NCBI GenBank assembly: GCA_051294905.1
Contig: CM119371.1
Location: 21,392,001-21,456,000 of the forward strand
Direction: 5' to 3'
DNA length: 64,000 nt
Origin: Botryllus schlosseri
Lineage: Eukaryota
Shown: positions 34,398 to 64,000 of the stretch, piece after piece
Layout of the letters: each line of letters begins with the position of its first letter
Position numbering within the stretch: position 1 is the stretch's first letter
Made by a program: the position numbers and the translations under genes
The notes under the pieces: model-generated
The model's input: the letters and a program-made list of their open reading frames with translations, nothing else
What the model was told of the DNA's origin: nothing
The model's database searches: none

Positions 34398-34441
34398 GTC
34401 TTTTACGGAAAAGACGACAACGTTCGTTTAGTTAATAAAAT

Positions 34442-38418: not shown

Positions 38419-38616
38419 GCGTATGAAGCTGGACACACACTCATTACGAAAGTGAAAGATGGAGATCTATATCTGGACCATACCGAATTTACCAGGTTCT
38501 TGAGGGAATCCAACATTGGCGATAAAGCCTTTTCCATAATTTCCATCTCGGGGGCTGCAAGACAGGGAAAGTCGTTCATGATGAATCTTATACTACGTTT
38601 CTTCGAGACAGAGGCG
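38419..38616 (+). CDS. atlastin-like exon, P-loop (G1)
   Basis: TTTAAG|GCG...GCG|GTATGT; ISISGAARQGKSFMMNLILRFF, compare atlastin GAFRKGKSF. Confidence 0.9.
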
Positions 38617-41600: not shown

Positions 41601-44600
41601 AATGGTTTAACTCTGCACGTACACCAACGGCATGTAGTAAAGTGCGTTTTCGTGAGACGATGACGCCTCGATACGGAACAATTATGACGTCACAAGACTT
41701 CGCCACCTCGTAAAAAATTAAAAGTCGGCGCCTATGACTGTATTTATTTAGTAGTAATAGCTTGTATTGCGACTTGAATGAGGACATGCTCGTCGACTTT
41801 CGAATGGTCGGGGGGATACTGCTCCACACATCAGGTCCGGCATATTTGATAGAACGATGATCGTTTCGGTCGATCATATAATATTTGGACGACATGGACG
41901 CGCGTGTGTTGTAGGTTACTTGCGCGCTTTTGATTCAGAGGTAAAAGAAGTCTTTGCAGTGGTTTGAGTGCAGTTTTACTGGCAGCCCCCCCCCCCAAAG
42001 AGGAAGCCACAATGTAACTTCGATTGGAGGATTTAAAGAGTATCAGAATAACCCATGCTGGCATGAAGCGCTAAGGCTGTAGAACAGGTCGCACTTCGGA
42101 GATAATTTAGTTTCTAGGGACTGAATATGAGTCTTCCAGGGAACACGAATTACTTGACGGTTATGATTCCTGAATTAAAGTATTATTCTCCTATTCATCG
42201 ATCTATTCAAGGAATGGACTGTATTTAATGTAAACGTTGCCTATAAAGCATTGAGACCAAAAACAGTATGCAATGATCTATTAGCTTAGTGTAGGTTAAT
42301 TTAATAGGTTCTAAATCTTCAACATCTGTGGTCGATCGAAGTTGTGAACAAGCCTTTGGAATTCCGGCTGCATATCGGGCGTAGAACGCTTTAGTAGAGA
42401 ATGCACGTGACCATCGGTTAGATTAGAACGTAGCTTTGTCTTGTTAATGCCGCGGGCCACGATATTATGTACGACAAGGAGCCGGCCGCGGCTGCTCACG
42501 ATCCCGTCGCTAGCCGGATTCGGCCCACGGTTCGTATGTGTTGCCGACCGCTACAATATAAAATTTCAAATATTTCAAATACCTTATAACGGTGCTTCTT
42601 TACTGAAATACGTTTCAATATCCGCTATCATCACTGAGTCATTAAATATTTTTCTCATTAACTTCTGGTCAACACGAATTCAACGAGAATTTCGAAACGG
42701 TCATTTTCGCACAGAAACAATGAAACCAAAGCAAGTTGTTGTTTTATTATACACGGTGATTCCTATACTTCAATCTGTTTACATCTGTCCGATGTTTATC
42801 ATTGTTGATTCCCCAGCAAACTATTAGCAACAGCCACTTTCGGCCGAGGCTTTTTGAGAAACACTTGGATCACATGGCGAGCAGCTGAGATGAAAACCAG
42901 GGCTCGGATAACTCCAGTCGAGCCATAATATTGAATGACATATGGGAAATATGAAATTATTCGTGACTCGGACTAAATTTTCATATAATTTTAAACTTCC
43001 ACATCCCAGAGCATTTTTAATTTGTCAGTTGGATTAAGCAGTGATCACATCATCGACACTAATTATTTATTGACTGGAATCCATCTCCTTTCACGTTTTC
43101 GAGATGCTTAGTTGGTCACATTGTTCGGCAGCAACATCGCAGAAGGAACAGCTTCGATATACCTTTAATTTTAAAAATCTTTTTCAGCATTATATTATGA
43201 TAAAAATAATCATACGTAAACTTGTTCAATCACTATTGCTTGTGCAAAGGTATAACTGAGGCTTTGCATAGTTGAATATATGTGTAATTGTTTAATATAT
43301 CTGTATGAATCGGTCTAGAGCTGTATATGATATTGCAATTGCGGTTTACGACAGCCAATAATGGGCGATCGTTTTGAGATAATGATGCGAGTTGCACGAT
43401 GTTGCTGAGTTCGGCCGTTGTCTTCCATGCCCCACTGATGATTTGCATGAAATATAGATCTGTCGATGTAATGTACAAAATGCATACTGTCATTGAATAA
43501 AAATATGTTTCGCTGGCCACAGAAGTTGGCTATTTCTTGGCCATTTCAGCATCATTTGGTAACGGGATTCTCCCGAATGCTCAAATATGACTTTTCCGCC
43601 ATACAAGTATGACATTTTCACCGTAATAAGCGCCAGTGCATTAAATTAGGCTCCCTTCTCGATTACCATCGAGTATAAACTGTAAGAATCCTTATCAGCA
43701 ACTTTCATAAATAATTCGTGACGCAAATCATTTTAGTAGTTCTGAAATAACAAGGAACCAGTTTGACACTGTTTAGCGATGGCCTATATGCATCTCCATT
43801 TGCATCTTCACATAGTATATAAGATGTCAAGGTTCCATCATGCTCCTTTTACGCCATCACAAAGAATATAATGTCTGTTATCCGTCACATTAAAGATACT
43901 TTGGTAATATTTCAACCCGACCGATTTCATTTCACTTTGTGGCAATGTAGTGGGAGGATAATAACTTCGGAATTTAATAATTCCAGTCACGTTCGTACGA
44001 CCGTACGACGTACGACCAATCAAGTTTTCGATGCTTCCGCAGTGGAAAATCTTTTCGGAGTCATAATTCTCGTCGATAATGTATCTTTCAGTGGCGAGCA
44101 GCGTTTAATCTCAGTACTCGAAAATATCATATTTTGCTGTTCGACGTGAATCATTAAAATAATTATTCTGTTCAGATTGGAGTACTCGAATCATTGTGCC
44201 CTGCCCAATGTGCACATTAATTCAAACTCCATAAACAAAAATTATATGATGACTTAGAATTGACTTGAAGTTCAACATGTTTATACATGACTTGAATTGA
44301 TAATTTGTCTGACATGACTCGAAATCTGCATAGAATGGAAGTGAATTGCCACTTAGAGTGGTTGACTTGATCCAAACATTTCGGAATATATATCAAGTCG
44401 AATATCTTATTCTGTGTTTTGCTTTGCCGATATTTGACTTCATAAAGTAAATCGCCAGTAAGTCAATTTACAAAGCCGCTGAAGTGCTCCTGACAACGTT
44501 TTCATGAACTTTTCATTCAGTGTACATGCCTCTTATTTACTTCGCCTAGGCTAAGGTGGGTGTCTGATCTTAATGGCTACTCCAAGTTGTCTCGACACCT

Positions 44601-47600
44601 TCCTATCTTTTAATTGTATCGCAGTCTTGTGATGATTTGAAACGATTAAAATAATAATAAACCTTGTTGATTTATTGATTGAACCTCTTTTTACCACTTA
44701 TTTATATCATAAGTAGGGCTATTTTATACCTAAAATAAGGTAATTTTTGACTTTTTTTGACCTAAGCAAACTGGATTTTGACCAGATTTGACCACGCGTT
44801 TGCAAATTAGGTGTTTTCCCACATAATGTTGAAATTGTACAATTTATATCCATTTCTGGTTGGAACTGGCTGTCCTAACGAAGTAGTTTGGCCTGAAAAA
44901 CGATTTTGGCTTCGAAACAGGCAACATTTTACACCAGTGGTTCCCAACCTTTTTCGACCCATCTCCCCCTTTTCAAGGTAAACCACGATCATCCGCCCCC
45001 AAATTTTGTGTACCGAAATTGGGAATACAAACTGTATTCACCGGTGGGTTGACTAAAAAAAGGTCAAATTTTCGGCTCGATGTCTAATTTGACACAGTTT
45101 TGTAACTAAATTACCGTGGATTGACTAAAAAATAAGTCTCCCGTTCTACCGCGTCATCGCCCCGCAATCGGCCCATTCGCTTTTTTCGCCCCCCGTCGCC
45201 CCTTCGTCATTTTCGCCCCTCTAGACCGCCAAATCGCCCCCTGGGGGCGATATCGCCCACGTTGGGAACCACTGATTTACACGAATAAAAAATATTTTAT
45301 CGAAATCTGGCCCTATGAAGAATTCCAGTGGTTATAATAGCCTATGTATCATGGTAGAAATAATTAAAAAAATGTATTACAACGAAAGATACGTTCCAAC
45401 ATTCTTGCGTGGAAAGTGCAAGTCCTTACTAAGAAGCTTTCCACGGACGTTCAGCAGCAGCAATTGTTGGCTGACAACAGTCAAGTTGTGGGTACACTGC
45501 TGGTGACACACCGTGTTGCTTCATTCTGAAAATGGTGTTTATATTATAATTTGTCATCGTGCAATTCTTAATATAAGAAAGATGCAATGCCCAAGAAATC
45601 TTTCTTCAGTTACGATAATGCGGTACGTTCACCATAACACGATGTCTACCAATTTGTTTTATTTGACCTTTTATGATTCACAATGAGCAAATAATTGACC
45701 GTTTACAACGGTAGGCCTCTAAAGTAGGTTACAAGCTGTAAAATATCAAATGATAAGTTCACCGACACTGCAAAATCTATGATACAAACGAAATGCAGAG
45801 GTTAAAAGATTTATGACTTTACCTAACGCTAAAATTTTCACAAAATTTTGACAAATTTTGACATGTCCAAAAAAAAACGCCCTAATCGGAAGTCCTTTGG
45901 AAATTTCTTCTCTCGTCATTATATATAAGATAGGTGCTGCCCAGCAATGCATCAAAAACGTAACTTCGCGACAAAGGTGATCAATGCAGCGATTGCTTCT
46001 ACTTTTGGAAGTCCCAACGGCAGTGTATCGAAATATTGTTCGTAGGGTCGCATCTTTTCATGCAGTTTACAATTGCAATTGCAGTGGACAACTTGCAATA
46101 CGATGAATACTAAAGAAGAGAAGTTGCGGATGACAGCATTCAAAGTAGATTCGGGATACAAATCTGTAACGACGGGAATTCTGCTCTACAATCATACTTT
46201 CGAAGTGAAGTGGAAAGGAAAACCGGTAACTATAGCCTACCACCCGCTAAGAGTATAAAGAATTATTGTATATATCAACAATCGTATCACGAAATATGAC
46301 ATTACCAACATTAAAATTCGAAGGACAATCGGTACCAGCAGGCGGCTTGAGCTCGATGTACTATTCTCCGATTACACTGGTCTGCACGATTTCTGCGCCA
46401 TGATATCTTTGGGTCGTTTTACCCAATTTGTGGGCGCTAAATCCGAATCTGGAAAAATTTTTGCTCCATCACATTATGTTTATTAGATAATATATATGTC
46501 GATGATTACTACTTTTTCGGGGTACTCAAGTAGATTTTGCATACTCACGGGAGTTGCTGAAGTATTTATGTTTTCATACTACTTCCACTTCTACCTGAAC
46601 AGTATTTTGTATAAAATATGTACTTTCGTAATTTGGATTTTGAAAAGTAGAATGTAGATTATGGATAATATTGCACCACTCTCATAGTTAAATCGGCATC
46701 TGAACGGCGTAAATTGGCCCCTGAATCACGGTTACTGAATATATTTACGAAGATTCTACCAATGTATAGTCTCATTATAGTCACTTCGCGCTAGCCGAGA
46801 AGATACACTAAGTGATATTGAATGGGGCTACCTCCGAGTAACTGCTAAATGCATGTACCCACCACCTTCTCCCTCCCGAACACACCAAATATACTCAGAC
46901 ACACACTCACTTTAGTAGGCTACTTCTCAGACCTTTCATTCATCCCTCCCACCTGAAGCAGTTTCGACATGTCTCAGAAATTACAAATTCTACTTGCAAT
47001 TGAGTAGAAAGGTATGACGTAAATTTTTCTACTTGAGTAGCAACGCTCACACCTTGGACAACTTATGAGTTATAAATAATCAATAGTGAAATATTACGAC
47101 AAATCAGAAAACGTCATGAAATGTCATGGTAATTTAGTCAGAACAACCAAGGCGTAATTATGCAAAACACATACATAAAGTCTCGAAATCATGTAAAACA
47201 ATCACTACCAATTCACCACTGCCAGGGTTGTAACCAAGTCACATGGTTCCGAATCACGAGTCAATCTGACTTTTGTGGTTTTGACTCGAGTCGAGTCGAG
47301 TCATTTCCAATTCATCACCGACTCGAGTCCGAGTCCAAGTCACCGTTTTAAGGGTCAAGTCCGAGTCATAGTGTTATGACTCGAGTCGAGTCCAAGTCAC
47401 AGTATTGAAGTCATGTTCAACTTATGTTTTCAATCCTACTTGGGTGATATCGAATTCCTTGCTTGCCAAACATGCTTATTTTGTCCCTATCATAGTCTCG
47501 GCACAAGTTTATTTAGTTAGGCAGATAACAGACAGTTCCTGGCCTCATATACCGATGCTACAGATAGACGAGACAGGCCGCCAATACGATAACGTTACTA

Positions 47601-50600
47601 ATCTTAAAACTTTAAATCAAGTATCTGTCTTGTAAGTCACAAATAAAAGCATTCAGTTTTTATTACGAGCACATCGACGACCACTCACAAATAGCTTATA
47701 GAGAATTAACGAATTCACGTCTACATACTATCTGATAGAAGACCTACGAATTCACGTCTAGCTAGATACAAGCTGGTAAAGAATCAACAGATAAACGCTT
47801 ATGTAGAGGTACAGTTTTGCTTCCACAACATATCAGGTGGTTGACCAGAAAAAAGGTCAACTTTCCTGCTCAGCTGCCGAAATAGTCGCCGGAGCGTTAC
47901 TTTAATGCTGATTTACTGTTGTCTTAGTCTAATTTGCCCTACATTTACCAAAAATATTCTCAAAAATGAGGACAGAATCTAAAAAAAGAGGCTACTTCTT
48001 AAAATTGTTAGATTATCTAAAAAGAACTTAAATTTGGCTTAATTCCAACCAGTAGAAAGCAATGCTAAGAGAAAATATTTTGGATTAATTACAAATAGAG
48101 ACTTTCGAAATATACCGGCAACCTCATGATATTGTTAGATTGTGTAAAAATATGATTCAAAGAAAATTTGGCTCAATTCCAACTAGAAGAAGCGGAGTTA
48201 TTAGAGTGGAATATTTTGGATTTGAAAAAATAGTCGACTTACTGCTAGTATGTAATTATATTATATGAAATTATTTCTCACTAAAAATACTCCATGTATT
48301 TTCAAATCCAAAATTTTCTCCTCTCATTTCATTGATTCCACTTTTTCAAATTAGGCCAGATTCAGTGTTATTTTTATGCAACGTAGCAATTTTATCAAGT
48401 AGCCACCCAGTAGAATAAAAAAGAATGTATTTTTGATCGGCCCTATTGTACAAATATCACACAACATTAGCCATTCATTATTATCACGTGCACAATGCAC
48501 ATACCTAACAAAACGTCAAACGGACGGAGGGTATTGTGTGTTTTCACAGACAGCAGATCAAATCAATGAGTTACACTTGAAAAATACTAAAGTGAAAAGG
48601 AGATTCTCATATATGTTGAGGCGGCATGGCCTTAGAATAATCCACATCCACTGGATACACGTTCCTCTGGTGCATTAGATGCAGGAATTGAAAAGCAATT
48701 TTGAACCACACTGAAGAGCATTAGATACTCATCCATTCTAGTCGGCCAAAAATGCAAAGAATCATCGCCTTCATATCTACCCATGAGCTTATCAGTCTCT
48801 TCCAAGTAGGCTACTTCACCATCTGAGTCATTTCTTTGGCTCTAATTGGACTTTGCTTCGATTGTTTGCTTGTATAATTGAAATGTCTTGAGTACTTTGG
48901 TGGCGGAGGATCTATTACCTCTTCATCACTGGATGATTTTGTACAATGCATTGCTCTTTGCTACTATGTACCATTGTCTTTTGTTTTTACGGCGGCGCAT
49001 ATCTGATATCAGACGAGTGCAACGAAAGCAGTGGTGACAAATAGCGATGTCGACAGAATTCGTCATATGCGTTGATCTAACCATTGTGATTCGCAACTTT
49101 CTTCACCTTCAAGTCACATAAAATAAGCCGAGTCAATGACTTGAGTCGAGTCATGCGTAATGACTCGAGTACAAGTCGAGTCAATCCAAATATTGACTCT
49201 AGTCAAGTCGAGTCATTTTCCCATTTCAAGAAAATGACTCGAGTCAAGTCGAGTCACAAAAAAATCGTGACTCGAGTCTGACTCGAGTCGAGTCATGACT
49301 CGAGTCATTACAACCCTGACCACTGCTATGTTTGGCTCTGTCCTAGAACCAAATTCTATTCTCAAGCAACACATATACGTCAGGCTTTGTTTTGAGCTGC
49401 CAATAAACAGTCTCTATTCATATGGTTGTCTATAATAGGCGATGCAGAAGAAGGCCTTTACATCATGAAAATAAAGAAGAAAAGTATTTAAGCTTCAGCT
49501 TTCCTGGATTCCGATAAAATGTGATGGTATATCCACACTAGAGAACGGGTTGAATCATCAAATTGCTCGCTAGGACAAACTCAATTAGAGGAGATAGAAG
49601 CTATGGCCAGATCGGCAGGTTATAGGTCGTCAATTTTACGTTCAAGCTCGAACATAAATTATTGCAAATCGATCGGTGTCGAGAGTATTTCGGGCAAAAA
49701 GTTTTCTCGGGTAAATTACAGTCCCTCGAACGCGGCATAAATCACAAGATGGTGTTAGTGAAATGTTGTTTTGCTCAGTCCCCCAAACGGTGTGTAGACG
49801 TCTTCTTTCCAATTAACCACAGTAGCAGTGGGAACTGAATTGATGGATTATAACAATTTGTTGAAATGCAGTAATTATGCCCTTTAGCGCGGTGCATTTG
49901 AGTTTTCGTAACGATCACATCTGCCTTCACTGTACCGCAGTGGTTCCCAACCTTTTTCCACCCACGTACCATTTCGAGGTTTTATGCAGTGCTCGCGTAC
50001 CGCCTACTTGAGTTACGTGCACCGAATGCGGCTTAAAATGTTGTCACAGAGTTGAGCTGCCGAAGGCAGCGAAAGAGAACATTATTAGCCCGTTTTAAGG
50101 CGCAATATATGAGTTCTGTAGTGGATCCATTTGGAATTCTTGTGGTCAAATATATTAAAACAGAATTCGGTAAGGCAATAATCCGAATGCTTTACGACTA
50201 GATCTCTTCCCATTAGGCTGTCATTGATGGAATTGCCCCTACCCACGATGACGAACTTGCCACGACGAGGGCTTTAAAAAAACTCCAAATAAGCCTCACC
50301 AGAACTAATAACTTTCTTCGGTCGAAAATGAACAGAATCTACTCGGATACCACCTAGAATACCTTCGCGTACCACTAGTGGTACGCGAACCACATGTTGG
50401 GAACCACTGCCGTACCGTAACAGTTGCTGAACAATTGTATTTTAAAAACGGGTGAATTGGCAGGGATATCTGAAACTACTACTAGGTATCCCTGGAAAAT
50501 GGAAACAAGTCATAGTGAATTAATATATTCACCTCTGCTGTAATTCGTGCGTTTAATTGTATTTATTTCTTCTCGATACAACAGTTCAGCGTATTCAGGG

Positions 50601-53600
50601 TAACTGTTATCTATTAAGATTTTGCGTGTGTTGTAAAGCAAAGTTGTTAAAGTCAACTGACGTTGCTGTCCGGATTCAATACTTCAGATCTCTTGCGGAC
50701 GACGCCAAAATTCCACCATCCCAAGATACCTCAAAATTAATACTCTCATTCTTCATTTGAATACTTCATTAACCAGCCTATATACATTATAGTATATTAT
50801 ATTATAGTACGGATCATAGGGGCACTATTTTAGCAGCACCTTTATTCGCTGCCATTTGGAATTAGCAATATTACGATGTTTGGGCGGCTGAATACAGTTA
50901 TAAATACCGATAAAACAGTGGCTCTAACGATCATATCAGTTGGCATATTTCTATGCTACCTCCATTTTAGTGATATATTTGCATCGCCACTGCGTATGCG
51001 TTTTAGGGAATGCAAATGATTCAACTGTCAACTCGGACATTGAAATTTGCTTCATATTATTATCTCGCAATTCGGGTTGATCTCGAGGCTGGAGACTTCT
51101 GCTATATTTTTCATGTAATCGGCATATATTCGTTCGGCCATAACACGAATGACTAGTTTTTGGTTGGTGAATTGAATTCGGACTTTCTTGCCTTCTAGGA
51201 ATTAGGTGAGTGGTTTTAATGTGGCCCATAGACATACTCGACATGTGCCGTCTTGAAGGACTTTGGAAGTATTTACCAAATACCAGAAAATTTGTGAGAA
51301 ATTTGCCGGATAATACACGCATTTTTTAATCTAATCAAAATTGCTTCGGGAGCCGGATGAAGTCATCTGGCAGGCTGGATGCGGCCCGCAGGCATAATGA
51401 TTGACACCCGTGCTGCTGTAAATCGCCAAGGTCAGTTTGTTAACCAAACGGATCATCAAAGCTCTATGCACGAGAGAGATTATAGGGTTGGCTTTTGTGG
51501 GTTGGCTTTCCACAAGATTCAAACTTGTTGGTAATTTTCTTTTCGACGAAAACTTCCAACAAAAGAAAGTGAGTTATTGCGTTCTATTGCAACTGTGAAC
51601 CGCAGGAGATGATGAAGCGAGTTACAGGGGACAAGCAGTTTACCACATTTCGACTCATTATTGACTATGTATGAAGTACCACCGAGATGTCGGAGATACG
51701 TCAATATTTTGATAGACTCACGTTTAGAGAGAAAATCTTCAGGCCAAATTCGGTCCTGAAGGTGATTCCATTGCCACGGATTCGATTCATCGATACGTAT
51801 CATCGTTGAGGCGAAACTCGAAGGAACAAATTGCGGGGTGTAAAATCCAAACGAAAACTTTACGAAATAATGATGTAGGGCACGTAGGCTATAATCGAAA
51901 TTAGTTAGCAAGTGCTGCGAAAGATCTTCGTTTTATGAGCACCATTGCATGATTTTATACATTATTATTAATAATGAATACAAGTAGCTTAAAATACTTG
52001 TCAGAGGAGTATGAGACATACGTATATTAACCCCAAATAAACCGGATTTCATCAGATTCCTTTTCGAAGAACCGAGTAAATATGAATGGCTCTGCGCAAC
52101 TTATCACTTTTCACTTATCATTTTTTGTTGCACAAAAACTGCAAGAAAGTTGCATTGAATTTTGAGAAAATTTGCAGTAAAAAGTTGCATTTAAACTTTT
52201 TGTTGAATTAGTAGTGTATGGGATACCCGAAAGATTCCGTGGTTTAACGTAGTTTCTGCAGAGCTGTCCAATTTGTCACTTTGCCATTTACGGACATTCT
52301 GGCGGGACCGCATAAAAATTACATTTTTTCCCGGTACACAGCAAGAAAATTACACAATGCGTTCCCCCAAAAGCCAAACAGCATAACGATAACCCCTCCT
52401 GCTAAAACAAGTCAAGTAACGCACCCCAAACCCCCTAGGTCTGCAAACTTGACCCAAGGCGTTCCTGAAAAACTCACTTGGCGACTTTAACAAAATCAAT
52501 GGTGTTAGAAAAGTGACCCATGCAGTGAAAATGTTATTTTCGGTGGTCTCGCCTGGGCATTCATGAAATGGGAAATCTCAAATTGAAACGACAGAATTAA
52601 TAACGCGATCTATTAACATAGTGTTCGGGCACGGTCGTGCTTGGCAAGGGGGTTTGAACTTATTGCTTGCAAACTATTGTGTCATAGATAGTGAGATGCC
52701 GCTAACCCATCATATAGCTCTTTGTTATGCAAATCAAAGAGAATAGAATCATATTATAAATAGTTAATCTTTATAGCCTGTTTTTAAATCATTCCTATAC
52801 ATTTCTACGCAATATTTGACAGAAGTTGCAGTAAAAATTGGGTATGAAAAATTGAGAAAAGTTGCACAAAGTTGCACTATAAAATCCCTTCAAACATCCT
52901 GAAACACCATAGTACATAGATTACGAGTATCTACGAAGCTGTCGGAAGCTGTAAAAAAAAATTCAAAAGTTGCAGGAACTTGCCCTACTTTTCACTTACT
53001 TGGATCTTCGCATAGTCGTTGCGATGTTAGTTTATATATACATTCGTAAATATTTCCTCACTCCTAATATTGTATCACGATCAACAAAAACCCACTTTTA
53101 AAATGTTCTTTAGATGGTGATCATCCTAATGGACACACAGGGGATTTTCGATCGAACGACGACAAAAAAGAATGAAGCCTTCATACTGACCATTGCAACA
53201 TTGATGAGCTCAGTACAAATATTCAATGTGCTGGGTTCGGTTGATACGTCTCGATTTGAGGCATTGGATGTGAGTTACTTATCTCTATCGATCAAAATTT
53301 CGGTTCAGCTGTTTAGTAAATCCCAATTCGTGAAATTATCAATTCATAAACATCTTATCAACTGTAATATACGAACGGTGGTATTTATTGAGATGAATTG
53401 GCCATTTCTGTATTGCCTGGGCGTGTCATTTGTTTCAAACACTGCCTAAAAACTTGGTTAAACAATGTGTTGTAACACAACTCAGCCACCTTATCTATGG
53501 TCATTAGTGCTATAGGCTAACACATGGTTCCTTGGCCATGTGTTCCCGGATTTCGGAGGTGGTACTTTACTTCTCAATTCTCAAATTTGTCGCCTGCAAC

Positions 53601-56600
53601 ATTACGTTGCGCCCTGAGCCTACATTTTACCTGCAGTGCTGGCACGCTAGCTAACAATCGTATTGTGAATGGGTATTTTGACAACTCTAATTTAAAAACG
53701 TGAACATCACTGCCATATGAGTTCATTTCTCGATCGTGGGAATGCCTTCTTATTGGTGTTGGACGCTATATAGGCTCCTACTCGTCCTCCGATCTGCAAA
53801 AGCAGTGTATTACAAAAAAGTGGGCCGTGGTATGTGTCGGCGTTTCAGGAATCAAAATACGTAATATCGGTATGGTGTAAAATGATCATCGATGTCGAAG
53901 ACATGGCAAGAATACGACTACAAATAGACACAGAAAAAAAGGTCATCAACCTGTGTCATGTCCCTGTTCTGCCTCCGGTTATGATGGGTGACAAGTAAAA
54001 GATGAACACCTTCGGTCATACCTAAACGACACGGTCCAATTGCCCGAGTTTAGTTATCACCGTTATAAATGCTAGTATATATGGGCAAACTAGCGTAAAA
54101 CACCCATTGACGGTGAAAGCTCCAGTTTGATTCATGGGAGTGCAATAGCAAGTTACGAAGAGTTTCAGATTTATGAGATTCTCCGCCCCGAAACGTCGCT
54201 GTGCTCAGAGCGTCTTTACAATAAAAAGCCAGAGAAATACCCAATCCATGACCTAATGGGGATGCCAGATTGAGATTGTAGATTGAGATAATGTAATTAT
54301 GGTCGTCTCGACATCCTTGTATCTGTTCACTGCATCGGATTGTACATCGCGTGTCTTGTTCGGGTAAATTCAACAGAAAAACGAACAATGACACACTCAT
54401 AATTTGGACTTTTGTTATACTTCGACCTAGCTTACGACATTTGGTCGCGGCACCCTTGAGCAGTCAAATTGGCTCACCAGTGTGCCGCGGCACAACGGTT
54501 GAGAACCACTGTCGTATGTAACCCTATTTATCTGAATTGCCATCGAACAGAATTGGTAGGTTAACTCGCCAATACAGGCCAACAAAATAAAATAAGCCGT
54601 TTCTGGGGTTTTTGAGATTGCTGATTGCGAATATCACAATAGTTTTGCCAAATTGGCTCTTTGTCCGAAGATATTTATACCCCTAAAAAGTCAAAAATTA
54701 CTGTATCTACCCTTGAATATTTCACTTGCTAGGAAGAAAATCGTAGTTTTTCATAATTTCACACTGTGCATAAACATATAATTGACTATAAAGAACCCTC
54801 ATGTCGTTCTCAGTCATTATATCATAGAACATGACATGATGCGAAATATTTGTTTGTCATAAAAGCAGTTTGTGAAGCCTAAAAATTGTACTTTTGCACG
54901 ACCGTAAATACATAGGCCTATTCTTCTGTATCAATTGATTATTCTACCAAGATTAAAGAGGATTATAAAACTATAAATTTTGTCCGTGCAAAGCTTAACT
55001 GCAATACTCGAATGCGTCTCATTTCTTTTGACTGATAAATGGATAATTTTCCAACAAAGTGGGTATATCTAGTAACCTTATCAAACGAGAAGCTTAAATC
55101 TGGTATCCGGTATATTAGAATTTGAATGAAAGATTCCAATTTCGCATTAGGAAGGAGTTGACTGCATGTAATTTCTCCTAAGATGTAGTAAATATAATTT
55201 TTAAGATGATCACAAAGCACCCAACTACCAACAGTTGGTCTGAAAACTAGTAGCTGCATATCGAAAACTCGAGCATAAACATGAGCATGAAAGTTCACTT
55301 CCTGTTCAGTCATCTTGATTTTATTTCCTGATCATCTAGTTCAGTGGTTCTTAACCTTTTTTCCTCCAGCGCCCCCTTTCAAAAATTATCGTGCTCCAGC
55401 GCCCCCCGCCAACTTCATAATGTAAGGAATGTAATAAAGACAATGAGTAAGGGGGAGGGCACTTCGTCAACCCCCTAAAAACGATTGCCTTGCGCACCCA
55501 AAGCGTGATAAACCGAACTTCTGAGGGCTTCGCCCCCAAGAACCCCATATCGTGATTTGGATGGTTTGTGTGGCCTGGTCGCCCTAGGTACCAAAATATT
55601 CTACAATGCATGAATGAATAGGTGGTAATTACATATATAAGTCGCTATAAACTTTTTATCCTGTCAGCCCACGTAATCAGATTTACCAGTAGCACTGAGT
55701 GAGCTGTTGTATAGGAAAATAAATGGCACGTAATTAATAATTAAACATATTCGGGCGTGCCCGCAGGTACAATTATTCGTTCCCAGGGCCGTAACAGAAC
55801 TTCGTCACCCCGGACCCCCCAAACAAGAAACGTTGGTCCTAGGCCCCCATCGGGTGATAAACCAAGCTTCCGGGGGACTTCACTCCCAGACCCCCATTAG
55901 GCTGTCCTCTATTTGCTGATAGCCTATTAGGTATCTACATTGGGTGTGCATTTACTGAGGCAGCTATTCTCGCCTAGTCGCGCGAAGCGCGAAAAATTTC
56001 ACTAATTAATGATTGAATTGGTCAATATCATCGGGAATTGCATGTAAATTGCTAACACGGTCTCTGCGCACAGAAAATCTACGTTGCGCACAACAAATCC
56101 GAAGTCATTATTTTTTTTTAGTCGTTACGCACTGTTGTCCAGGGGTCAGTGCAGTGAGTTGTTGAGTGTGCGCAGACTCATCAAAACTTAAAGCGAACAT
56201 TGTGAGGTTTCTTGGAAACTGTAGGGCCCGTAACTAATATTTAAACATATTCGGGCCGGCGAACCCGTTGGTATGACTTCGTTGCATGATGCTATTTCGT
56301 GATCCCCTGTCTGCAATATCAAAAGATATAGAATCGCTCAACGGGGATATCGCCCAACAGGAATATCCCTGTCGCCCAATCGTACTAAACTACAAGACGC
56401 ACACGATTTCAGATTGGTATTTCTTCACTGACATAAAACTTTTCCCTGCCAGATGGAATTCGTCTTCTGGGGTTCAGATTGCCAAGACAGGAACATTCGG
56501 TGTCAGTCATTTAGGCGTCCATGGACAATTAAACCTATATGTATTTTGAAGGCAATATGTAACGAAGTTTTCGGTGTTAATTTGCTCTGAATACTCATTA

Positions 56601-59600
56601 AGGATATGTCCTATCACCAGATCATCTACTGCAAAGCCATTTTTCTCCAGCGCCCCCCCCATACTGCCCCCCTGAGCCCAGCGCCCCCCATATCGCCCCC
56701 TGAGCGTTTCCGCCCCCCTTCAAAATCGCCAGCGCCCCCTGGGGGGCGCTGGGGGCAAGGTTAAGAACCACTGATCTAGTTGATTAGCAAGGGGAGAGGT
56801 TCTACCAAGACATAAGAACAACAAAAGAAATATATCAGGGCAGATGAGATGAATAATTGAACCTAGTATGGCAGACCATTGCCGGAACCTTTCGAGAAAC
56901 TGCACTAACTAGCTTACAGGCGAAAATCGTACAAAAACAATTGTGCTTTAAAATAACGAATAATATTATATTCCAACTAATTATTTCAAATTTACAATAG
57001 GTGGTCAACGTAAAACTGATTAAATTATTGCCACGTTATTTGAGTATCTAGGTAAATACCTATATACATGACTGGAGTTTATTTATGTGCATGATACCCG
57101 TGAAAGTCTGTAACTATGATAAATCTATTACCCCAAAATTACCGTGCTGCTGCTGTATTCTGATTTAAAAGTGTCTTCTGTGTGTAAAAACAACAGATAA
57201 ATTTAATTTATAAACTATATTGTACGACTGAGCCGATATTATATCTAGTCATTACCTCGAAAATGGGAGATTTTGGTCGAAATAGCCCCATGGGTTATCT
57301 CCACAACAAGAGCCAATTTGAAAAAACTAAGGTCATATTCGAAATCAGTTGCCTTCAGAACCCCCAAAACCACTCTTACTTTGTTTGCCTAAAATATGTT
57401 TTGACCAGTGTTATAATTCTAATTCAGAACGCAATTAAGTATGGGCAATTGACGGCTCGTGACGGCCAATACTTGAAAGTAAGAATGTCATGTCCGTCAA
57501 TATTTCCAATTGGGCATTACCGCGCTTTTTTTTATCTTGTAGCTCCAGAATTTGATTTTTCTCGTAAGAGATAAGAGAAGGACAGAGGAAGAGTGTCAAT
57601 CATATTTGAAGGATTTACTGGAGAACAACAAAGGCTGTTCAGACGAATATAAAGCTATCCGATTTGCAATAAAGGAAACCTTTTCTCTTGTGAATCTTTT
57701 TTGCTTGCCGAGACCTGGAGACGCAGTTGAGGATTTGACGATGGACCAATGTGAGATTGAGGATAAAGGTAATTGTCGATTATATCATATCAGTAAAATA
57801 ACAACTTGAATTGTGCATAATACGACATGATGAAGGCATCGTTGGATAATCACGACGGCAATCGATTCTGTTATTCAAAGATATTTCATCTAATTTTGAG
57901 GCGATAAAAGTAAGACTGATATTTTCGTGCGGATAAATCCCGCAGGATTTTCGAATAGATAATCAAATATTTGTATCAGTATTATTACCACGCACCAGCA
58001 TGCATTGACTGATCCTTCTTTAGGGTTCAGCACCCCAATTTTAGAGGTGGGCCGCGGAACATTTTCAGATCGAACTTTTGGTCCCAACCTAAAAATGCTG
58101 CGAACCCCTGTAATGTATAAGATGGTTTCAAGTATATAGTACAAAGGTTCATGCTAATACGCGCCTAGTCTACCCACCTAGTCTATTTGTAGAAGTACTT
58201 CAAGTATTATTATTATTATTATTACACGGGTATTACAGTGACGCTTATCGCCGTTTAGGCCTTGTGCGTCACGACACAGATATAGGTACAGTTCAGTTTC
58301 ATTGTACAGTTCAGATTCATCGTACAGTCAGTATCTTCAACATCATGCATTGCATTGTTGGACGACTTTCACTCAGCGCATTCACTCTTTCACTCTTTCT
58401 CTTTCTCTTGCATGCGTCCGTCTTCGGGTCTCAGCTGCCGACTTTATGAGAGCGTGGCTTGCTCTGTGTCTGGGCTTTTTAACACACTGTTAGTACAGTG
58501 GGATCCTCAAGTATATTAACCTACCTGCATTACTTCCTAAAGGAGTTATGACTATAGACTACTTCTGCTTGACAATTTACAGTTTTACAGGAAAAACTAG
58601 ATTTAAAATACTGAATTATTTACAAACTTGTAAAACGCTACTTCTACTTCTACTTTAGTACCGACGACGACGACTTTGTCCCCCTATGAGTACGCATCGG
58701 CTATTTGAATTAGACTGTTGTATATGCAACCCACTAATATCACCAGTTATCAATCGTGTTTACAGTATTTTCCTTGAGGTAAATTGTAAAATATCGGCAA
58801 GGATGTTCCCTTCCTTTCAGATATCGACGCGAGGTTTCTGGATCGCGTCGACGAATTCTTCAAATCGACGATTAGTCCTGACATATTGAAGCCCAAGCTT
58901 ACAAATGATGAAAAGCCAATTCAAATCCGTAATTTGTATAAGTTGATGATATTATGTGAAAATCAGTTCAAGAAAAGCAGTGATGGTCTTATTGACCCAA
59001 CGGCAATTATGGAGGTAATTTTTTTTGCCTTGTAATGAATGTATCATTCGCTCTTTCATTTTGATAACCGCCAAGACTGCTGAATGCTGACCTCATCTAA
59101 TGTGAACCTCAACAAGGATTCTGGTAATTGAGAGGATCACGATCATCAATACTTTACAGATATTCAAACTATATATTCTCTTGTATTAGTGTATTTTGGG
59201 TTTCATTACTCGTTATCGTTATATCATGTCGGTAGCGTATACATGGCAACCCAGAACACCATCCCAACCAGGGGTCGTCAACCGTGGTCCACAAAGAAAG
59301 TTTTGAGTAACCCGCGAGGAAAATTATCTGCAATATCATAATTTATTGAGAACTTCCGAGGCCAACAAATTATATAATTAACCTGACTGCAAAATGGACT
59401 ATATTGATGGATGAAATATGAGTTCTGATGCATTGGCGTGCTGGTCAGGGGGTCCGTCTCAACTTTAGTAGATCTTCGGATATCGCCATGAAGTAAAATA
59501 TTTCGAAGAAGATTTATTTCACTCGATCGCCTGCTTTTAATATTGGTACCCCCACAGAAAATTAATAACACCTCCTATTTACAGATTTGAGTCCAACTAT

Positions 59601-62600
59601 ATTCGCAATTATTAGATAACATATCGACCAACATGCGGTAAATAGTTTCTAAATTGCATGTGGTCCTTGGACCAAAAAGGTTGACCACCCCTGATATATA
59701 TACCCTGCTTTCAATGGTCACTTTATATAAAAATATTGACGTTGTTGCTGCTGTTTTAATTGTATTGTTTTTATATACTGCCTCGTATAGGTTTTCTGTA
59801 AAACGCTATATTTAGTTGTAGATGTCATTCCTAATAAAACATATGATGAGTTTTCAAGAACGAGCTATTTCAAGCACTATATATCATTTTATACTATCAA
59901 CATTATCGCAACAAACAATATATTGATATTTTCAAATTCATTCCACTCAAGATTTTGGACTGACGCTCATCACGAGCTGAAGTCAGTAAATGCGGTAGCA
60001 AAATTTAAAGTATAGAAAGTTTGACGTTATGCCATAGTAATGAAAAGTAAACATAGTGAAGAACGGTAACAACAACTCACAAATGTAATGTGACATACAT
60101 ATATTTAGCTTCAAAACAACCGAATACCAACATATAACTAATGAAATATTCCCACAATATATAAATGCCATTTTGGCAGCAGAGAATTGGCTGTTCCGGC
60201 TTTATGATAAATAATATCAAAAAATTAGTGATCACTAGAGCAAGTTTTTGTTGCAGTTAAATCCGTGGAATGTTGCATTTATTTTTGAAAAAAGTTGCAG
60301 AAGTTGCATTCTGACCACATTTTGCTCGGTTGACTAAAAAAAAGGTCAACTTCCCAGAATCAAAAATACTTTCATGAAAAATCGCAAATTGCAAAAAGTT
60401 GCATGAAAAAAATGGACGAAAGTTGAAAAAAGTTGCACTAGAAAATTCCTTCAAACAGCTTGAAACAGCATTCTACATATTTTACGAGTATTTAGGAAGC
60501 TGCTGGAAGCTGTAAAAAAAGTTGCAAAAGCTGCAAAATCTTGCCCTAGTGATCACGAGTAACTATGGAAACTGATAAGAATAGGACGTTGTGTATTTTG
60601 TAGTTGATGAGTTTACAGCTTATGCACCGAACCGTGATATTTATATTACACACGATCTGTATATTGTATACGTATAACATGAGTGCATAATGGTCTAACG
60701 CTGCTGGACAATAAAGGTGTGAAAATAGACTTGCAAAGCTCCCTAAGTCATGCATCGCCCTTCTATGCTATCCCGGAAATACTGGACGTCGGGCAAAAGT
60801 CACTGATACCAGTTTTGCAGATCAGGTCTATGGTCGGACCCGGTCGGGGCTCGACTCCATGATTTGCCTATCAAGATGCCGAGCTCTTCGTCATTCTAAT
60901 ATAATTTTGGGTAAATGTGCGGTGCTTAAAAAGGTGTTTGCCTATGGCAGAATTGCAAGTAGTTTTTGTAATCGTGGTTGCGCATGAAATGTGAAGACCG
61001 TGATGATGTGATAGCAAAGTGCTCAAATTTATCCATGCTTTTTCCTAAACCATACAACATAGTGCGAATGGCATGCGATGTCGAATTCAGCTCAATATAA
61101 TAAGATGGTATTCAGTGTAGACCTACATTAAATGAATTATTGACTGCGAGGATGCAATTTCGAATCAGGCAAGATGTGGTAAATTTGCAGCATGACGTGT
61201 CCAAGATACAGCAAGTCACTCTGGAACATTTTGGTACACTTGATTGGAGGCATGATTCATTAGTCCCCAGGTCACGTGTCGCCGTGCCCATTGGATGGGA
61301 AACGATGATTCGTTTGAGCAACAATTCCTAAACGTTCATATTTGTTTTTAAGAAGGCGGAGTTTCGTGAATGGAGAGTTCAGCGTAGTGAGCCGGAACTA
61401 ACGTTATGAGTAATAAATAGATCTGTTGTCCTCGGTTAAATATTTCGGACTCGACGAGTATTTATATATTTCCGTTTATCCGATCCACAAATCCCTTACA
61501 CCCAAAATTTAGCTTGCAGACAGGTCCGGTTCTCCTCCATAAATTTGATCCTATTACAATTGATAAAGGTTTATTTGGACAGGCGGAGGACAGAGTTGCG
61601 TATGAAAGCAAGTTCGAACAGTTGTATAACGAATTCGTCGATGGGATCCAGGTGGGGATAGTATGGATTTATCAATATACAAGACCAACGAAAATATGAA
61701 ATCTGCTAGTATTGCACCATGAACATTTAAATTCTAGATCGAACCCTTTACGACGGTAGTTTAATATGGAAGGCTTGCCGTAGTAAAAAATTAAATTTGC
61801 GAGTACGGCCGATGACCATCACTCGTCGCACCCCAGTAAACGGTCAACGGGGGTTAACCCAAACTACTTCGTTAGGACATACATTTCCAACCAGAAATGA
61901 AGATACGATTGTAACATTATACACGAAAACACCTAATTTACATAGAAAATGGCAAAATTATTTCAAAATGGAATTATTTATGGTCATAAGATATCGAAAA
62001 TTTGATTTTTTTCGTAACAATTTTCCGTTTCAGGCAAATAATATCACCCTAATTAAAAGATAATATTGGTAACAGATTTCTTGAGTGCCAATTTCACGAC
62101 TATGAAGAAGATAACATGGTACTACATCAATGATTAGACAAGTAATCACCACCAGCTGATGCAATCACAAGTTGGGTTTGCAGGGTTGAAAGAAGTGATG
62201 GTGCCCAACCTCCAACTACGCAGACCACATGGATTAACGTTTCGTTAGACATTTATCTGGAGTCCTCTTTCCTTCTGTATTTACTGTGTCAAATCACAGA
62301 GATGTAGAAAAAAATCTAATACCAAAAACAACAATGGAGAGATGAGAGAAGTAAAATTTCAAAATCCAAGCAATGTTACCTTAGGTAGCAGAGTCGAGCC
62401 GAGCTGGATGCCTGTTGCGGTCGCTGCTGCCCGTATGATTCCTTGTAAAGCTGTCTTCCCTTCATCTATTAGCGCCGCAAACTCCTATATTCTCCCCAAT
62501 GTAAACATCCGCGATCCTGAAGCATTTTCAGTATATTGCCCAACAAGACTGGTAAATACAGTGGGGGACGTCCAGAGAGCCGATTAATATTGTTACACAC

Positions 62601-63905
62601 AGTACGCTATGACAGCTATATCCGGAATAGTCCCGTAAAAAATACCAATTAATGTAGTCAAGCATGCGTAATCCGAATACAAATATGGCTCTTAAATTAT
62701 TGACCCCCAGAACGAAACATGAAATGCCCAAAGTAACAATGTCAGATGGATAGACCGTAGCTGGCCGTTTCGGCATCCTCTTCTATATCTTGTTTATTGC
62801 ATGTTTGTTACGTAACGGATGAAAAGATCTGAATTGACGAATATTACAATCATTTCTGAATTATAAAGTAAAGACATGTTATAGTGCGACTATAAACGGA
62901 ATTTTTGAACTTCGACAATTTTAGCTAGGTATGATTCTGACAATTCTGTACAGGCTACATTTCATCAAAGTTTGTGTAACCATATCTATTAACGACAAAC
63001 TACCCAGGATACAAATGAGAATATACATTTGCAGGATGTAGGTGGCGAATCGGAAGAAGAAGTCGAGAGTTCTTGTAGAAGTCTTTCAAAAACAATCCTT
63101 CAGAAGTTCAATGAAGAAGTATCACAATGGAAAGTCAGTGATGGCGGAAAGCAGTACGAAACGAAATACAGAGATAGACTCACGGAGCAAATCAAAATTG
63201 CCATATCAGGGCGGGTTTCGAAATGGATCAACCAGCAGGTATATTCCGGTCTTAAGCGAATTCATGAAAATATGTTAATTGTCCTTATGTTTATATTATA
63301 TATATATTCAAATGAGGGTATACTGCTTATGAAATTGGTAATGCTTTCGGATGCGCCCTGTCAGTGCATTGAATTTATTTAAGTTATGTTCGTAATCCAT
63401 CATAGTCATAATGTAATTGAATATATAGAAACACATTTTATTTTAATATTGCAGTATTCCTGATAAGAGCCTGACTGATTGTGTTCAGACAATATACCGA
63501 CTCCATATCCTATTTGAGATAATTATTAATATATGCCGTGTTGTGTTGACATTTTTAACCCATACCAGATGATATCATAGTCTCTTCACACACCACTAAT
63601 CACGTTATTGCAATGTGCCAAGCAGAATCGGTAAAGAACATGTCTTCGACATAGCGTTCGCCTTCTGTATATTGAAAATCTCGTCAAGTTTAGATATCGA
63701 TAACAATTGCCTAATAGTATTTTTATTATTGTGGGATTACAATTGTTATGTCGGGATTAAGTTCCAAAAATATATAAATTACGATCATAAAGCGTGAAGT
63801 ATGTCTTCAATAATTGTATTATTACTCTTACATCAGGCTAGAAAGAAGCTGGAAATGAAAATTCAGACTGAACATTTATTGAAAGAGTACGATACCAGTA
63901 TTAAG
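38419..63905 (+). CDS. multi-exon atlastin/GBP-family (GB1/RHD3-type) large GTPase; first exon not identified, gene continues past the window
   Basis: Phase-compatible AG/GT exons at 38419-38616, 46085-46225, 53114-53269, 57428-57478, 57543-57768, 58821-59014, then 61116-61270 (tentative), 61513-61651, 62034-62118 (frameshifted), 63035-63238, 63837-63905. Motifs G1 GAARQGKS, G2 VTTG, G3 DTQG, G4 FLVRD. Confidence 0.85.
39017..42064 (-). mobile_element. CR1/L2-type LINE 3' remnant split by a hAT element
   Basis: 41740-41895 encodes SIKYAGPDVWSSIPPTIRKSTSMSSFKSQYKLLLL, a typical ORF2 C-terminus. The 3' UTR resumes at 39309 and ends in AATAAACCAA(TGA)n near 39017-39063. Confidence 0.7.
39318..41736. 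mobile_element. 2.4-kb hAT non-autonomous element
   Basis: TIRs CATAGGCGCCGACTT...AAGTCGGCGCCTATG; perfect TSD ACTGTATT; contains a nested element 39466-40460 (TAGGCGCGTAGCCA TIRs). Confidence 0.9.
44935..45274. mobile_element. hAT (Buster-like) MITE
   Basis: CAGTGGTTCCCAAC...GTTGGGAACCACTG; TSD TTTTACAC/ATTTACAC; TCGCCCC repeats. Confidence 0.88.
46085..46225 (+). CDS. atlastin-like exon, switch I (G2)
   Basis: TTGCAG|TGG...CCG|GTAACT; AFKVDSGYKSVTTGILLYNHTF, compare atlastin GFSWRGGSERETTGI. Confidence 0.8.
47223..49318 (-). mobile_element. hAT deletion derivative, GACTCGAGTC family, with transposase remnant
   Basis: TIRs CAGGGTTGTAA...TTACAACCCTG; perfect TSD ACCACTGC. Minus strand ~48565-48830 encodes DSLHFWPTRMDEYLMLFSVVQNCFSIPASNAPEERVSS...ILRPCRLNIYENLLFTLVFFKCN, a hAT dimerization domain. 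Confidence 0.9.
49938..50409. mobile_element. hAT (Buster-like) MITE
   Basis: CAGTGGTTCCCAAC...GTTGGGAACCACTG; TSD CTGTACCG/CCGTACCG. Confidence 0.88.
51420..51920 (-). mobile_element. degenerate Penelope-like reverse transcriptase remnant
   Basis: YLRHLGGTSYIVNNE...NSLHHLLRFTVAIERNNSLSFV and ISLVHRAL resemble the PLE RT motifs RYVDD...LNSLHP.LKFT.E.E.N..LSFLD and LVHRA. Confidence 0.55.
53114..53269 (+). CDS. atlastin-like exon, G3
   Basis: TCTTTAG|ATG...GAT|GTGAGT; IILMDTQGIFD...TIATLMSSVQIFNV. Confidence 0.92.
55342..56773. mobile_element. hAT (Buster-like) composite element
   Basis: CAGTGGTTCTTAACC...GGTTAAGAACCACTG; perfect TSD ATCTAGTT; GCGCCCCCC repeats; contains other repeat fragments. 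Confidence 0.88.
57428..57478 (+). CDS. atlastin-like short exon
   Basis: TTCAG|AAC...AAA|GTAAGA; NAIKYGQLTARDGQYLK, compare atlastin TEYGRLA. Confidence 0.75.
57543..57768 (+). CDS. atlastin-like exon, G4 (RD motif)
   Basis: TTGTAG|CTC...AAAG|GTAATT; LQNLIFLVRD...IKETFSLVNLFCLPRPG. Confidence 0.9.
58208..58506 (-). mobile_element. short non-LTR retroposon insertion with (TAA)n tail
   Basis: (ATT)n run at the left end; TCAAGTAT duplicated on both sides; interrupts another repeat. Confidence 0.55.
58821..59014 (+). CDS. atlastin-like exon, end of GTPase domain and linker
   Basis: CCTTTCAG|AT...GAG|GTAATT; phase 1 matches the previous exon; DIDARFLDRVDEFFKSTISPDILKPKL...LIDPTAIME. Not listed in the ORF track. 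Confidence 0.85.
60236..60548. mobile_element. hAT MITE with AAGTTGCA repeats
   Basis: TAGAGCAAG...CTTGCCCTA; perfect TSD GTGATCAC. Related copy at 52115-52987 (TSD CTTTTCAC). Confidence 0.85.
61513..61651 (+). CDS. atlastin-like helical-bundle exon (repeat 1)
   Basis: TTTAG|C...CAG|GTGGGG; LHKF...GLFGQAEDRVAYESKFEQLYNEF, resembling atlastin VKLF..[20 protein letters not shown]. Confidence 0.6.
63035..63238 (+). CDS. atlastin-like helical-bundle exon (repeat 2)
   Basis: TTTGCAG|GAT...CAG|GTATAT, 68 codons; SKTILQKF...DGGKQYETKYRDRLTEQI. Confidence 0.75.
63837..63905 (+). CDS. short helical exon (start of a possible repeat 3)
   Basis: CATCAG|GCT...AAG|GTAAAT, 23 codons: ARKKLEMKIQTEHLLKEYDTSIK. 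Confidence 0.65.
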
Positions 63906-64000
63906 GTAAATATCGTTTGCACTCAATATTCAGCAGACATTGACGTACAATATCGAAATACCGGTTACAGTTGTAGGCAATGTTCCCTCTAATTTTTGAC

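What the first reader, a model, noticed from the sequence alone, without database searches (positions are those of the whole stretch)
38419..63905. Divergent atlastin-like GTPase with an apparently multiplied helical stalk
Seen: six phase-compatible exons rebuild a GB1/RHD3 GTPase domain with G1 GAARQGKS (catalytic Arg kept), G2 TTG, G3 DTQG and G4 RD. Canonical atlastin has one three-helix bundle followed by a transmembrane hairpin. Here the downstream exons alternate between a short type (ANN...Y...M at 62034; ...EY...IK at 63837) and a long type (KF...G...Y...L/F at 61513 and 63035), and no transmembrane segment appears before the window ends. Inference: exon-pair duplication has lengthened the stalk. 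This could be a lineage-specific, fast-evolving GBP-like (immune or membrane-remodelling) paralog rather than the housekeeping ER fusogen.
Basis: partly seen in the sequence, partly recalled or inferred. Interest (0 to 1): 0.7.

Follow-up and report, generated by a model that had tools for sequence, protein, structure and literature searches.

The report
Soluble atlastin with variable-length helical stalk
This sea-squirt gene encodes a relative of the membrane-fusing enzyme atlastin that has lost its membrane anchor and carries a rod of repeated helix bundles whose number differs between neighbouring gene copies; it probably binds membranes from solution, possibly in defence, which is untested.

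Summary
Real gene, partly wrong exons. Six phase-compatible exons give an atlastin-type GTPase with G1-G4 intact. The true short exons are 61583 and 63837 (69 nt); the long ones are 63035 and the next exon beyond the window. The gene runs about 62 kb past the window: at least 868 aa, no transmembrane segment, no CaaX, ending in a cationic amphipathic helix. It is one of five tandem paralogs, among about 18 divergent copies beside one canonical atlastin in an ascidian genome. Two paralogs carry six short/long exon pairs, five of them mutually similar, which shows exon-pair duplication. The window gene has two, each weakly matching atlastin's three-helix bundle but not each other; it probably lost four. 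dN/dS is below 1. One public assembly holds exon-bounded contigs; three bulk RNA runs show none. Similar TM-less multi-bundle atlastins occur in arthropods, and silkworm BmAtlastin-n is a TM-less antiviral atlastin. This scan noted the architecture before on two other paralogs. A GBP-like immune role is inferred only.

The parts
38419..38616 (+). GTPase exon with G1 P-loop (GAARQGKS, arginine finger kept); phase 0-0; first coding exon found, the start-codon exon was not found
   Evidence: Pfam GBP E 3e-4; human atlastin-1 E 2.8e-6, no GBP chain listed; 63-71% identical in four paralogs
46085..46225 (+). GTPase exon with G2 / switch I (VTTGI); 141 nt, phase 0-0
   Evidence: 141 nt in all five tandem paralogs
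53114..53269 (+). GTPase exon with G3 (DTQG); 156 nt, phase 0-0, same size as in canonical atlastin of this genome
   Evidence: Pfam GBP E 3.3e-11; atlastin chains E 1e-10 against GBP chains E 2e-3
57428..57478 (+). small GTPase exon, 51 nt, phase 0-0 (57 nt in canonical atlastin)
   Evidence: 51 nt in all five paralogs
57543..57768 (+). GTPase exon with G4 (RD); ends in phase 1
   Evidence: Pfam GBP E 0.004; contig of run X1 covers 57543-57766 with no difference and leaves the window sequence at both ends
58821..59014 (+). last GTPase-domain exon; ends in phase 0
   Evidence: conserved in four paralogs; a variant contig in X1 joins its 3' part to 61581
61583..61651 (+). short exon S1 (69 nt, phase 0-0): first helix of bundle module 1; positional match of the 72-nt exon of canonical atlastin
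   Evidence: 61-82% identical in four paralogs; joint 58995>61581 in X1
63035..63238 (+). long exon L1 (204 nt, phase 0-0): helical hairpin completing bundle module 1; ends about where the transmembrane hairpin begins in canonical atlastin
   Evidence: AlphaFold2 helices 7-30 and 36-67, pLDDT 87; copies repeated inside paralogs pA and pB; X1 contig covers 63032-63235 with no difference
63837..63905 (+). short exon S2 (69 nt, phase 0-0): first helix of bundle module 2; its long partner and eight more exons lie beyond the window (G000:C1:21458345-21517780)
   Evidence: 69-nt counterpart in four paralogs; module 2 profile matches the atlastin bundle profile, E 3e-4

Best explanation
A functional, soluble, atlastin-derived large GTPase. 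Origin (exon structure shown, order of events inferred): in canonical atlastin the bundle is a 72-nt exon plus the first ~200 nt of the exon that also holds the transmembrane hairpin. In this family a phase-0 donor falls at about that point, so the hairpin is gone and the bundle is a symmetric two-exon cassette that can be duplicated or deleted in frame. Paralogs pA and pB have six cassettes; the window gene, pC and pD have two plus an unpaired short exon, probably after loss of four. All complete copies end in a shared ~320-aa helical tail and a cationic amphipathic helix. Mechanism (inferred from atlastin and GBP biology): GTP binding dimerises the G domains, bundle 1 swings across as in atlastin, the extra bundles and tail form a rod, and the terminal helix inserts shallowly into an anionic or curved membrane. 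The protein would coat, tether or deform membranes from solution, as GBPs do, and would not fuse ER tubules. The most likely setting is cell-autonomous defence (about even odds).
For: Open, AG/GT-bounded models of 868, 1183, 1187 and 888 aa without TM after the GTPase (highest hydropathy 0.75-1.65). G1-G4 kept. dN/dS 0.27-0.47 between the window gene and pA or pD in all three regions (Fisher p under 2e-9 for the three window-gene/pD comparisons). Modules M1, M3-M6 of pA mutually similar in 10 of 10 pairs, z 3.8-15. M1, M2 and the pooled modules match a profile of public atlastin-type bundles in register (scores 21.6, 22.4, 25.0; reversed and column-shuffled controls at most 13.0). The C-terminal 15-mer ranks first or second for hydrophobic moment among 854-1173 windows in 4 of 4 complete models, net charge +3 to +4, and is a separate helix in the fold (residues 80-98, low confidence). 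About 18 divergent copies, in clusters, on long branches. BmAtlastin-n, a TM-less atlastin, is cytoplasmic and antiviral (PMC4926086).
Against: The window gene's own modules are not similar to each other, and 3 of its 5 candidate segments (MX, YZ, MT) do not match the bundle profile. The terminal exon folds as one long helix, not a hairpin. Direct comparison of M1 with the canonical bundle is not significant (hhalign 0.3-0.7%). No fold match for L1; no usable Atlas hit for L2. Three bulk RNA runs give zero depth over three exon-holding bins. Nothing here measures GTPase activity, membrane binding or immune induction. No site-level test of positive selection was run, and no regional dN/dS exceeds 1 (highest 0.78).
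Confidence: 0.6

Rival explanations
1. Same protein and architecture, but a non-immune job: a tissue-restricted membrane tether or shaper (secretory granules, gametes, tunic-forming or regenerating cells) whose rod length sets the tethering distance.
For: Atlastin ancestry; terminal amphipathic helix recalls the atlastin juxtamembrane helix (PMC10140384 passages); seen in 1 of 4 runs laid; dN/dS below 1 throughout.
Against: Clustered, fast-diverging multi-copy families with module gain and loss are more typical of defence genes (general knowledge); the one tested analogue is antiviral.
Confidence: 0.27
2. The stalk of this particular gene is not a multiplied bundle: one divergent bundle followed by an unrelated coiled-coil or GBP-like helical tail, with the 69-nt exon sizes a coincidence.
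For: No mutual similarity among M1, M2, MX, YZ, MT; M2 does not match the pooled M1/M3-6 profile; the M2 match to the bundle profile covers only 35 columns.
Against: M2 scores 22.4 against at most 13.0 in controls, in the right register; the same exon pair is repeated with clear similarity in pA and pB; PF02841 hit none of the stalk exons scanned.
Confidence: 0.08
3. A recent pseudogene or silent copy left by birth-and-death turnover.
For: No reads over three exon-holding bins in 3 of 3 bulk raw-read runs; start exon not found; a 16-kb palindrome sits in one intron.
Against: 18 exons open and canonical; purifying selection; two exon-bounded contigs identical to the window in X1.
Confidence: 0.05

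Closest known systems
Canonical atlastin (human ATL1-3, Drosophila atlastin; Styela clava atlastin-2-like P0002; this genome's copy at G000:C11:27.38 Mb)
   Same: G1-G4 motifs; best solved-structure hits; same exon phases, same 156-nt G3 exon, short phase-0 exon opening the bundle
   Different: About 30% identity to the nearest public atlastin-like proteins; no transmembrane hairpin; two to six bundles plus a long helical tail in place of one bundle; multi-copy
BmAtlastin-n (Bombyx mori; PMC4926086; abstract, introduction and first results read)
   Same: Atlastin-group GTPase, about 770 aa, helical middle domain, no TM, cytoplasmic; antiviral in cells and transgenic larvae
   Different: The part read calls the middle a coiled coil and does not describe repeats or exon cassettes. 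A 745-aa Bombyx atlastin (P0064) has five bundle hits here; whether it is BmAtlastin-n was not tested. No sign of orthology with the ascidian family
Unstudied arthropod atlastin-like proteins (Planococcus, Bactrocera, Halotydeus, Amphibalanus, Darwinula, Choristoneura, Contarinia)
   Same: 20 of 157 public proteins examined have three or more adjacent bundle hits (names)
   Different: Several end in a CaaX-like motif (P0044, P0090, P0125) or a hydrophobic tail; the ascidian subfamily ends in a cationic amphipathic helix. P0017 groups with a canonical insect atlastin (SH-aLRT 98), which points to more than one origin
Vertebrate guanylate-binding proteins (GBP1/2/5)
   Same: Soluble GB1/RHD3 GTPase with long helical stalk, clustered paralogs, birth-and-death evolution (PMC9005921 passages)
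   Different: GTPase much closer to atlastin than to GBP (44 against 21 bits); no CaaX; no PF02841 match
Sey1/RHD3
   Same: GB1/RHD3 GTPase whose stalk is a series of three-helix bundles (recalled); Sey1_3HB clusters among Atlas leads for L1 (0.80-0.85)
   Different: Keeps a TM hairpin and fuses ER (recalled); no Sey1 chain listed

Membership tests
GB1/RHD3 large GTPases | G1 GxxRxGKS-type P-loop, G2 Thr, G3 DxxG, G4 RD; Pfam PF02263 | tested here: met
GB1/RHD3 large GTPases | GTP hydrolysis and nucleotide-dependent dimerisation | not testable with these tools
   residues kept; no assay
Atlastin (ER fusogen) | GTPase domain closer to atlastin than to GBP or Sey1 | tested here: met
   exon sizes and phases as in the genome's canonical atlastin
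Atlastin (ER fusogen) | Single three-helix bundle after the G domain | tested here: not met
   two modules match the bundle profile; six exon pairs in pA and pB
Atlastin (ER fusogen) | Two tandem transmembrane segments | tested here: not met
   highest hydropathy after the GTPase 1.22 against 2.22 in the control; model is from genome comparison, not cDNA
Atlastin (ER fusogen) | C-terminal amphipathic helix | tested here: inconclusive
   a terminal amphipathic helix is present; homology to the atlastin helix was not tested
GBP | GBP-type GTPase domain | tested here: not met
   atlastin E 1e-10, GBP E 2e-3; no GBP chain
GBP | GBP_C (PF02841) middle and effector domains | tested here: inconclusive
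   no hit on the nine stalk and tail exons scanned; genome search blank but it also missed canonical atlastin; Atlas lead 0.87 to a GBP_C cluster for L1, under the tool's recognition level
GBP | C-terminal CaaX (in GBP1/2/5) | tested here: not met
   none in 4 of 4 complete models
GBP | Immune induction and recruitment to pathogen membranes | not testable with these tools
   run descriptions are coded; no challenge data seen
GBP / RNF112 / Sey1 | Placement in a tree that includes these families | not tested
   no such sequences were in hand; the tree holds atlastin-like rows only
TM-less multi-bundle atlastin-like proteins (BmAtlastin-n type) | Atlastin-type G domain, no TM, extended helical stalk | tested here: met
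TM-less multi-bundle atlastin-like proteins (BmAtlastin-n type) | Common origin with the arthropod proteins | tested here: inconclusive
   16 ascidian copies lie on one side of a branch (SH-aLRT 89) on long branches; unrooted quick tree, careful search unfinished

The most novel reading that the evidence does not exclude
Ascidians have built their own GBP-like defence system from atlastin: about 18 soluble GTPases whose bundle became an in-frame exon cassette, so that neighbouring paralogs differ in rod length (two against six bundles) while sharing one amphipathic membrane-binding tip. Rod length would act as a tunable ruler for the thickness of a target surface, and the same solution would have arisen several times in arthropods with CaaX or hydrophobic tips.
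Probability: 0.3. Interest if true: 0.78.

Novelty: new variant of a known kind. Interest (0 to 1): 0.52.

Why it matters
A review of GBPs asks whether invertebrates without GBPs use atlastins for defence (PMC9005921, passage). This family offers a chordate test case. It also gives a natural series of close paralogs with the same motor and tip but two or six bundles, which makes the question 'what does stalk length do in GBP/atlastin GTPases' directly testable. Genes of this kind are dropped from atlastin surveys as non-homologues (PMC10140384 methods passage). The gene in the window is the weaker example of the multiplication; pA and pB are the clear ones.

Tried and rejected
Exons at 62034 and 61513: rejected. 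Two candidates I first took for exons past the window (window-extended 65213 and 65590) had no paralog counterpart and broke phase; dropped. Word-based homologue searches with the long-exon alignment and the G3-exon alignment found nothing; both queries are 52-70 aa, so this is weak, and no full-length public member of this subfamily was obtained. PDB sequence search with the long exons: one chance row. Foldseek with the L1 model: no match at E 0.001 or better. Atlas: lead only for L1, nothing for L2. PF02841 genome search: 0 of 5 candidates, insensitive. No RNA holder was listed for the stretch. The start-codon exon was sought by comparing paralogs and not found. The variant transcript joined at 58995>61581 has no second match in the assembly (1 match, the gene itself); an allele or unassembled copy, unresolved. 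The careful tree did not finish in two runs; no one-clade test was run; the C7 copy was left out because only its G1 exon was held. The spliced protein could not be folded whole; only exons L1 and T were folded. No complex prediction was sent. Literature: eight full-text searches; none listed a paper on ascidian atlastin-like expansions or tandem bundles; only listings were seen except for three papers; subscription papers are not covered and no supplements were opened (Fig. S1 of PMC4926086 may show the BmAtlastin-n domain layout).

Full report
Setting. The window is G000:C1:21392001-21456000 of a 495-Mb genome. The canonical atlastin of this genome, on C11, is 70% identical over one exon to Styela clava atlastin-2-like, so the animal is most likely an ascidian. 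A PF02263 search gave 48 exon matches; 19 of the 48 are G1-bearing exons at separate places: one canonical atlastin and 18 divergent copies on C1, C2, C4, C6, C7, C10 and C13 (lower bound, 50 candidates scored). Four copies lie 0.2-0.9 Mb upstream on the same strand: pA (C1:21.24 Mb), pB (20.93), pC (20.75) and pD (20.56).

The observation. The six GTPase exons are real and phase-compatible: 38419-38616, 46085-46225, 53114-53269, 57428-57478, 57543-57768, 58821-59014, with GAARQGKS, VTTGI, DTQG and VRD. 62034-62118 has a stop in each frame; the quoted motif reads only across a frame change; it has no counterpart in the paralog regions, though its acceptor looks strong. An exon starting at 61513 is out of phase with the donor at 59014, and its first 23 codons are unmatched in 4 of 4 paralogs. 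The conserved exon is 61583-61651.

The gene. Comparison with the paralogs extends it to C1:21517780. After the GTPase every exon is phase 0-0: S1 69 nt, L1 204, S2 69, L2 177 (C1:21458345), S3 69 (21460164), then 105 (21463353), 234 (21498917), 69 (21501269; least certain, weak paralog support), 102 (21504043), 165 (21505345), 72 (21507971) and a terminal exon of 101 codons (21517475). The model is 868 aa without the unfound first exon, open and AG/GT throughout. pA and pB are 1183 and 1187 aa and pD 888 aa; pC was traced only to 689 aa. None has a TM stretch after the GTPase (highest 19-residue hydropathy 0.75-1.65; control 2.22) and none of the four complete models ends in CaaX. All four end in a cationic amphipathic helix that ranks first or second in its protein.

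RNA. One lay over 44500-64000. Run X1, whose kind is not on record, holds a 634-nt contig matching 57543-57766 and a 932-nt contig matching 63032-63235, both without differences and both continuing in other sequence. The 3-base overhang at 63032 is what a join from 61651 gives; a join from 62118 would give 1 and from 59014 would give 2. A deeper variant contig joins 58995 to 61581 with 17 other letters between, which places the donor at 59014 and the acceptor at 61583 and so links a GTPase exon to the stalk. That variant has no second match in the assembly. Only 15 of 126 joints and 8 of 4014 pieces were shown. X1 also holds low-depth intronic contigs. Against expression: raw-read runs X5, X9 and X7 (6-13% of each read) give zero depth in the bins 57520-58170, 58822-59472 and 62728-63378. 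Exons beyond the window were not tested with reads.

Is the stalk multiplied? In pA and pB, yes: six short/long pairs in a row. Modules 1, 3, 4, 5 and 6 of pA are similar in 10 of 10 pairs (z 3.8-15; at most 2 of 300 shuffles reached the score); 9 of the 10 profile pairs reach 53-98% in at least one direction, and M3/M5 does not (about 1%). In the window gene the five candidate segments are not similar to one another (10 pairs, z at most 2.5), nor is module 1 to the canonical bundle directly. Against a profile of about 220 public atlastin-type bundles, module 1 scores 21.6 (E 5e-4), module 2 22.4 (E 3e-4, 35 columns) and the pooled modules 25.0; reversed and 15 column-shuffled controls each reach at most 13.0. 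The three tail segments do not pass. L1 folds as a two-helix hairpin (pLDDT 87), as expected for the second and third helices of a bundle, but matches no solved fold specifically. The terminal exon folds as one long helix plus the tip helix, at low confidence. So two bundles are supported in this gene and six in two neighbours.

How it arose. In canonical atlastin of this genome a 72-nt phase-0 exon is followed by one exon holding the rest of the bundle and the TM hairpin. In the family the long exon stops after about 68 codons at a phase-0 donor, which removes the hairpin and makes an in-frame cassette (structure shown, order inferred). Modules within pA and pB are 16-31% identical, while module 1 is 40-54% identical between the three paralog lineages, so the duplications look older than the paralogs. 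The window gene, pC and pD keep an unpaired short exon where pA and pB have four more pairs; loss of four modules is the simpler reading (inferred; the orphan could not be assigned to one module). Copies on C13, C2 and C10 show the same short/long rhythm in candidate exon lists (not verified further).

Selection and affinity. dN/dS is 0.24-0.78 over 15 region-by-pair comparisons, highest in the pA/pB tail (0.78, not different from 1). The GTPase is atlastin-like, not GBP-like: 44 against 21 bits on solved chains, and only atlastins. The 156-nt G3 exon was picked at 15 of 17 loci where it was held. In a quick unrooted tree of 55 rows the five tandem paralogs form one group (SH-aLRT 99) on a branch of 1.5 changes per site, and the 16 divergent ascidian copies lie on one side of a branch (89); long-branch attraction is possible and no GBP, RNF112 or Sey1 row was present.

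Relatives. Of 157 public atlastin-like proteins, 147 have a bundle hit, 35 have two or more, and 20 have three or more adjacent. The named ones are arthropod; several end in CaaX-like motifs. The nearest are about 30% identical to the window gene. BmAtlastin-n is a 770-aa TM-less atlastin, cytoplasmic, midgut-enriched and antiviral (PMC4926086, part 1 of 5 read). A GBP review raises the question whether atlastins took over defence where GBPs are missing (PMC9005921, 12 passages). The atlastin crossover mechanism and amphipathic helix are from passages of PMC10140384. Eight searches listed no paper on an ascidian family or on tandem bundles (see Tried and rejected). Earlier notes of this scan describe four- and five-bundle paralogs elsewhere in this genome.

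Mechanism. Shown: intact motifs, lost hairpin, cassette exons, variable module number, terminal amphipathic helix, purifying selection. Inferred: GTP-driven head dimers and crossover, a rod stalk, peripheral membrane binding by the tip, and a GBP-like coating or tethering role, most likely in defence. It works like a GBP in layout; it is not a member of the GBP family and is not a canonical atlastin.

Verdict. New variant of a known kind; interest 0.52. The architecture is more common than the literature suggests and was already seen by this scan. What this locus adds is the two-against-six difference among tandem paralogs and the amphipathic tip.

Noticed in passing
G000:C1:21481082-21497149 (loci L033-L035), inside the 35-kb intron of the gene: A 16,072-base palindrome at 99.6% identity holding a multi-exon leucine-rich-repeat gene fragment on both arms; either a very recent inverted duplication or an assembly fold-back.
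   Followed up: partly
window 28833-34427 region, minus strand (ORFs 33498-34427 and 29642-32656): Ty3/gypsy-type retrotransposon with gag-like and 1004-aa pol-like frames, upstream of the first GTPase exon; labels recalled from motifs, not searched.
   Followed up: no
window 28249-29026, minus strand: Broken frames resembling a Harbinger/PIF-type transposase (label recalled, not tested).
   Followed up: no
window 55330-56775: A 1.4-kb element with terminal inverted repeats and an 8-base target duplication, as in hAT-type non-autonomous elements, in the intron after the G3 exon; X1 shows a joint skipping 55359-56759.
   Followed up: no
window 58943-59014 and 61581-61651: Run X1 holds a variant of these exons at about five times the depth of the contigs identical to the window, absent from the assembly: a divergent allele or an extra copy.
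   Followed up: partly
G000:C7:28680788 (L111): A sixth member of this subfamily by its G1 exon, on another contig; its long stalk exon was not found.
   Followed up: partly
G000:C4:25.26-25.33 Mb, C6:9.85-10.36 Mb, C10:0.85, 1.36 and 10.49 Mb: Further clusters of divergent atlastin-like genes on long branches, with varied G1 motifs; stalks not modelled.
   Followed up: partly
window 58255-58505: A transcribed repeat with very high read depth in all three bulk runs, inside the intron before the last GTPase exon.
   Followed up: no
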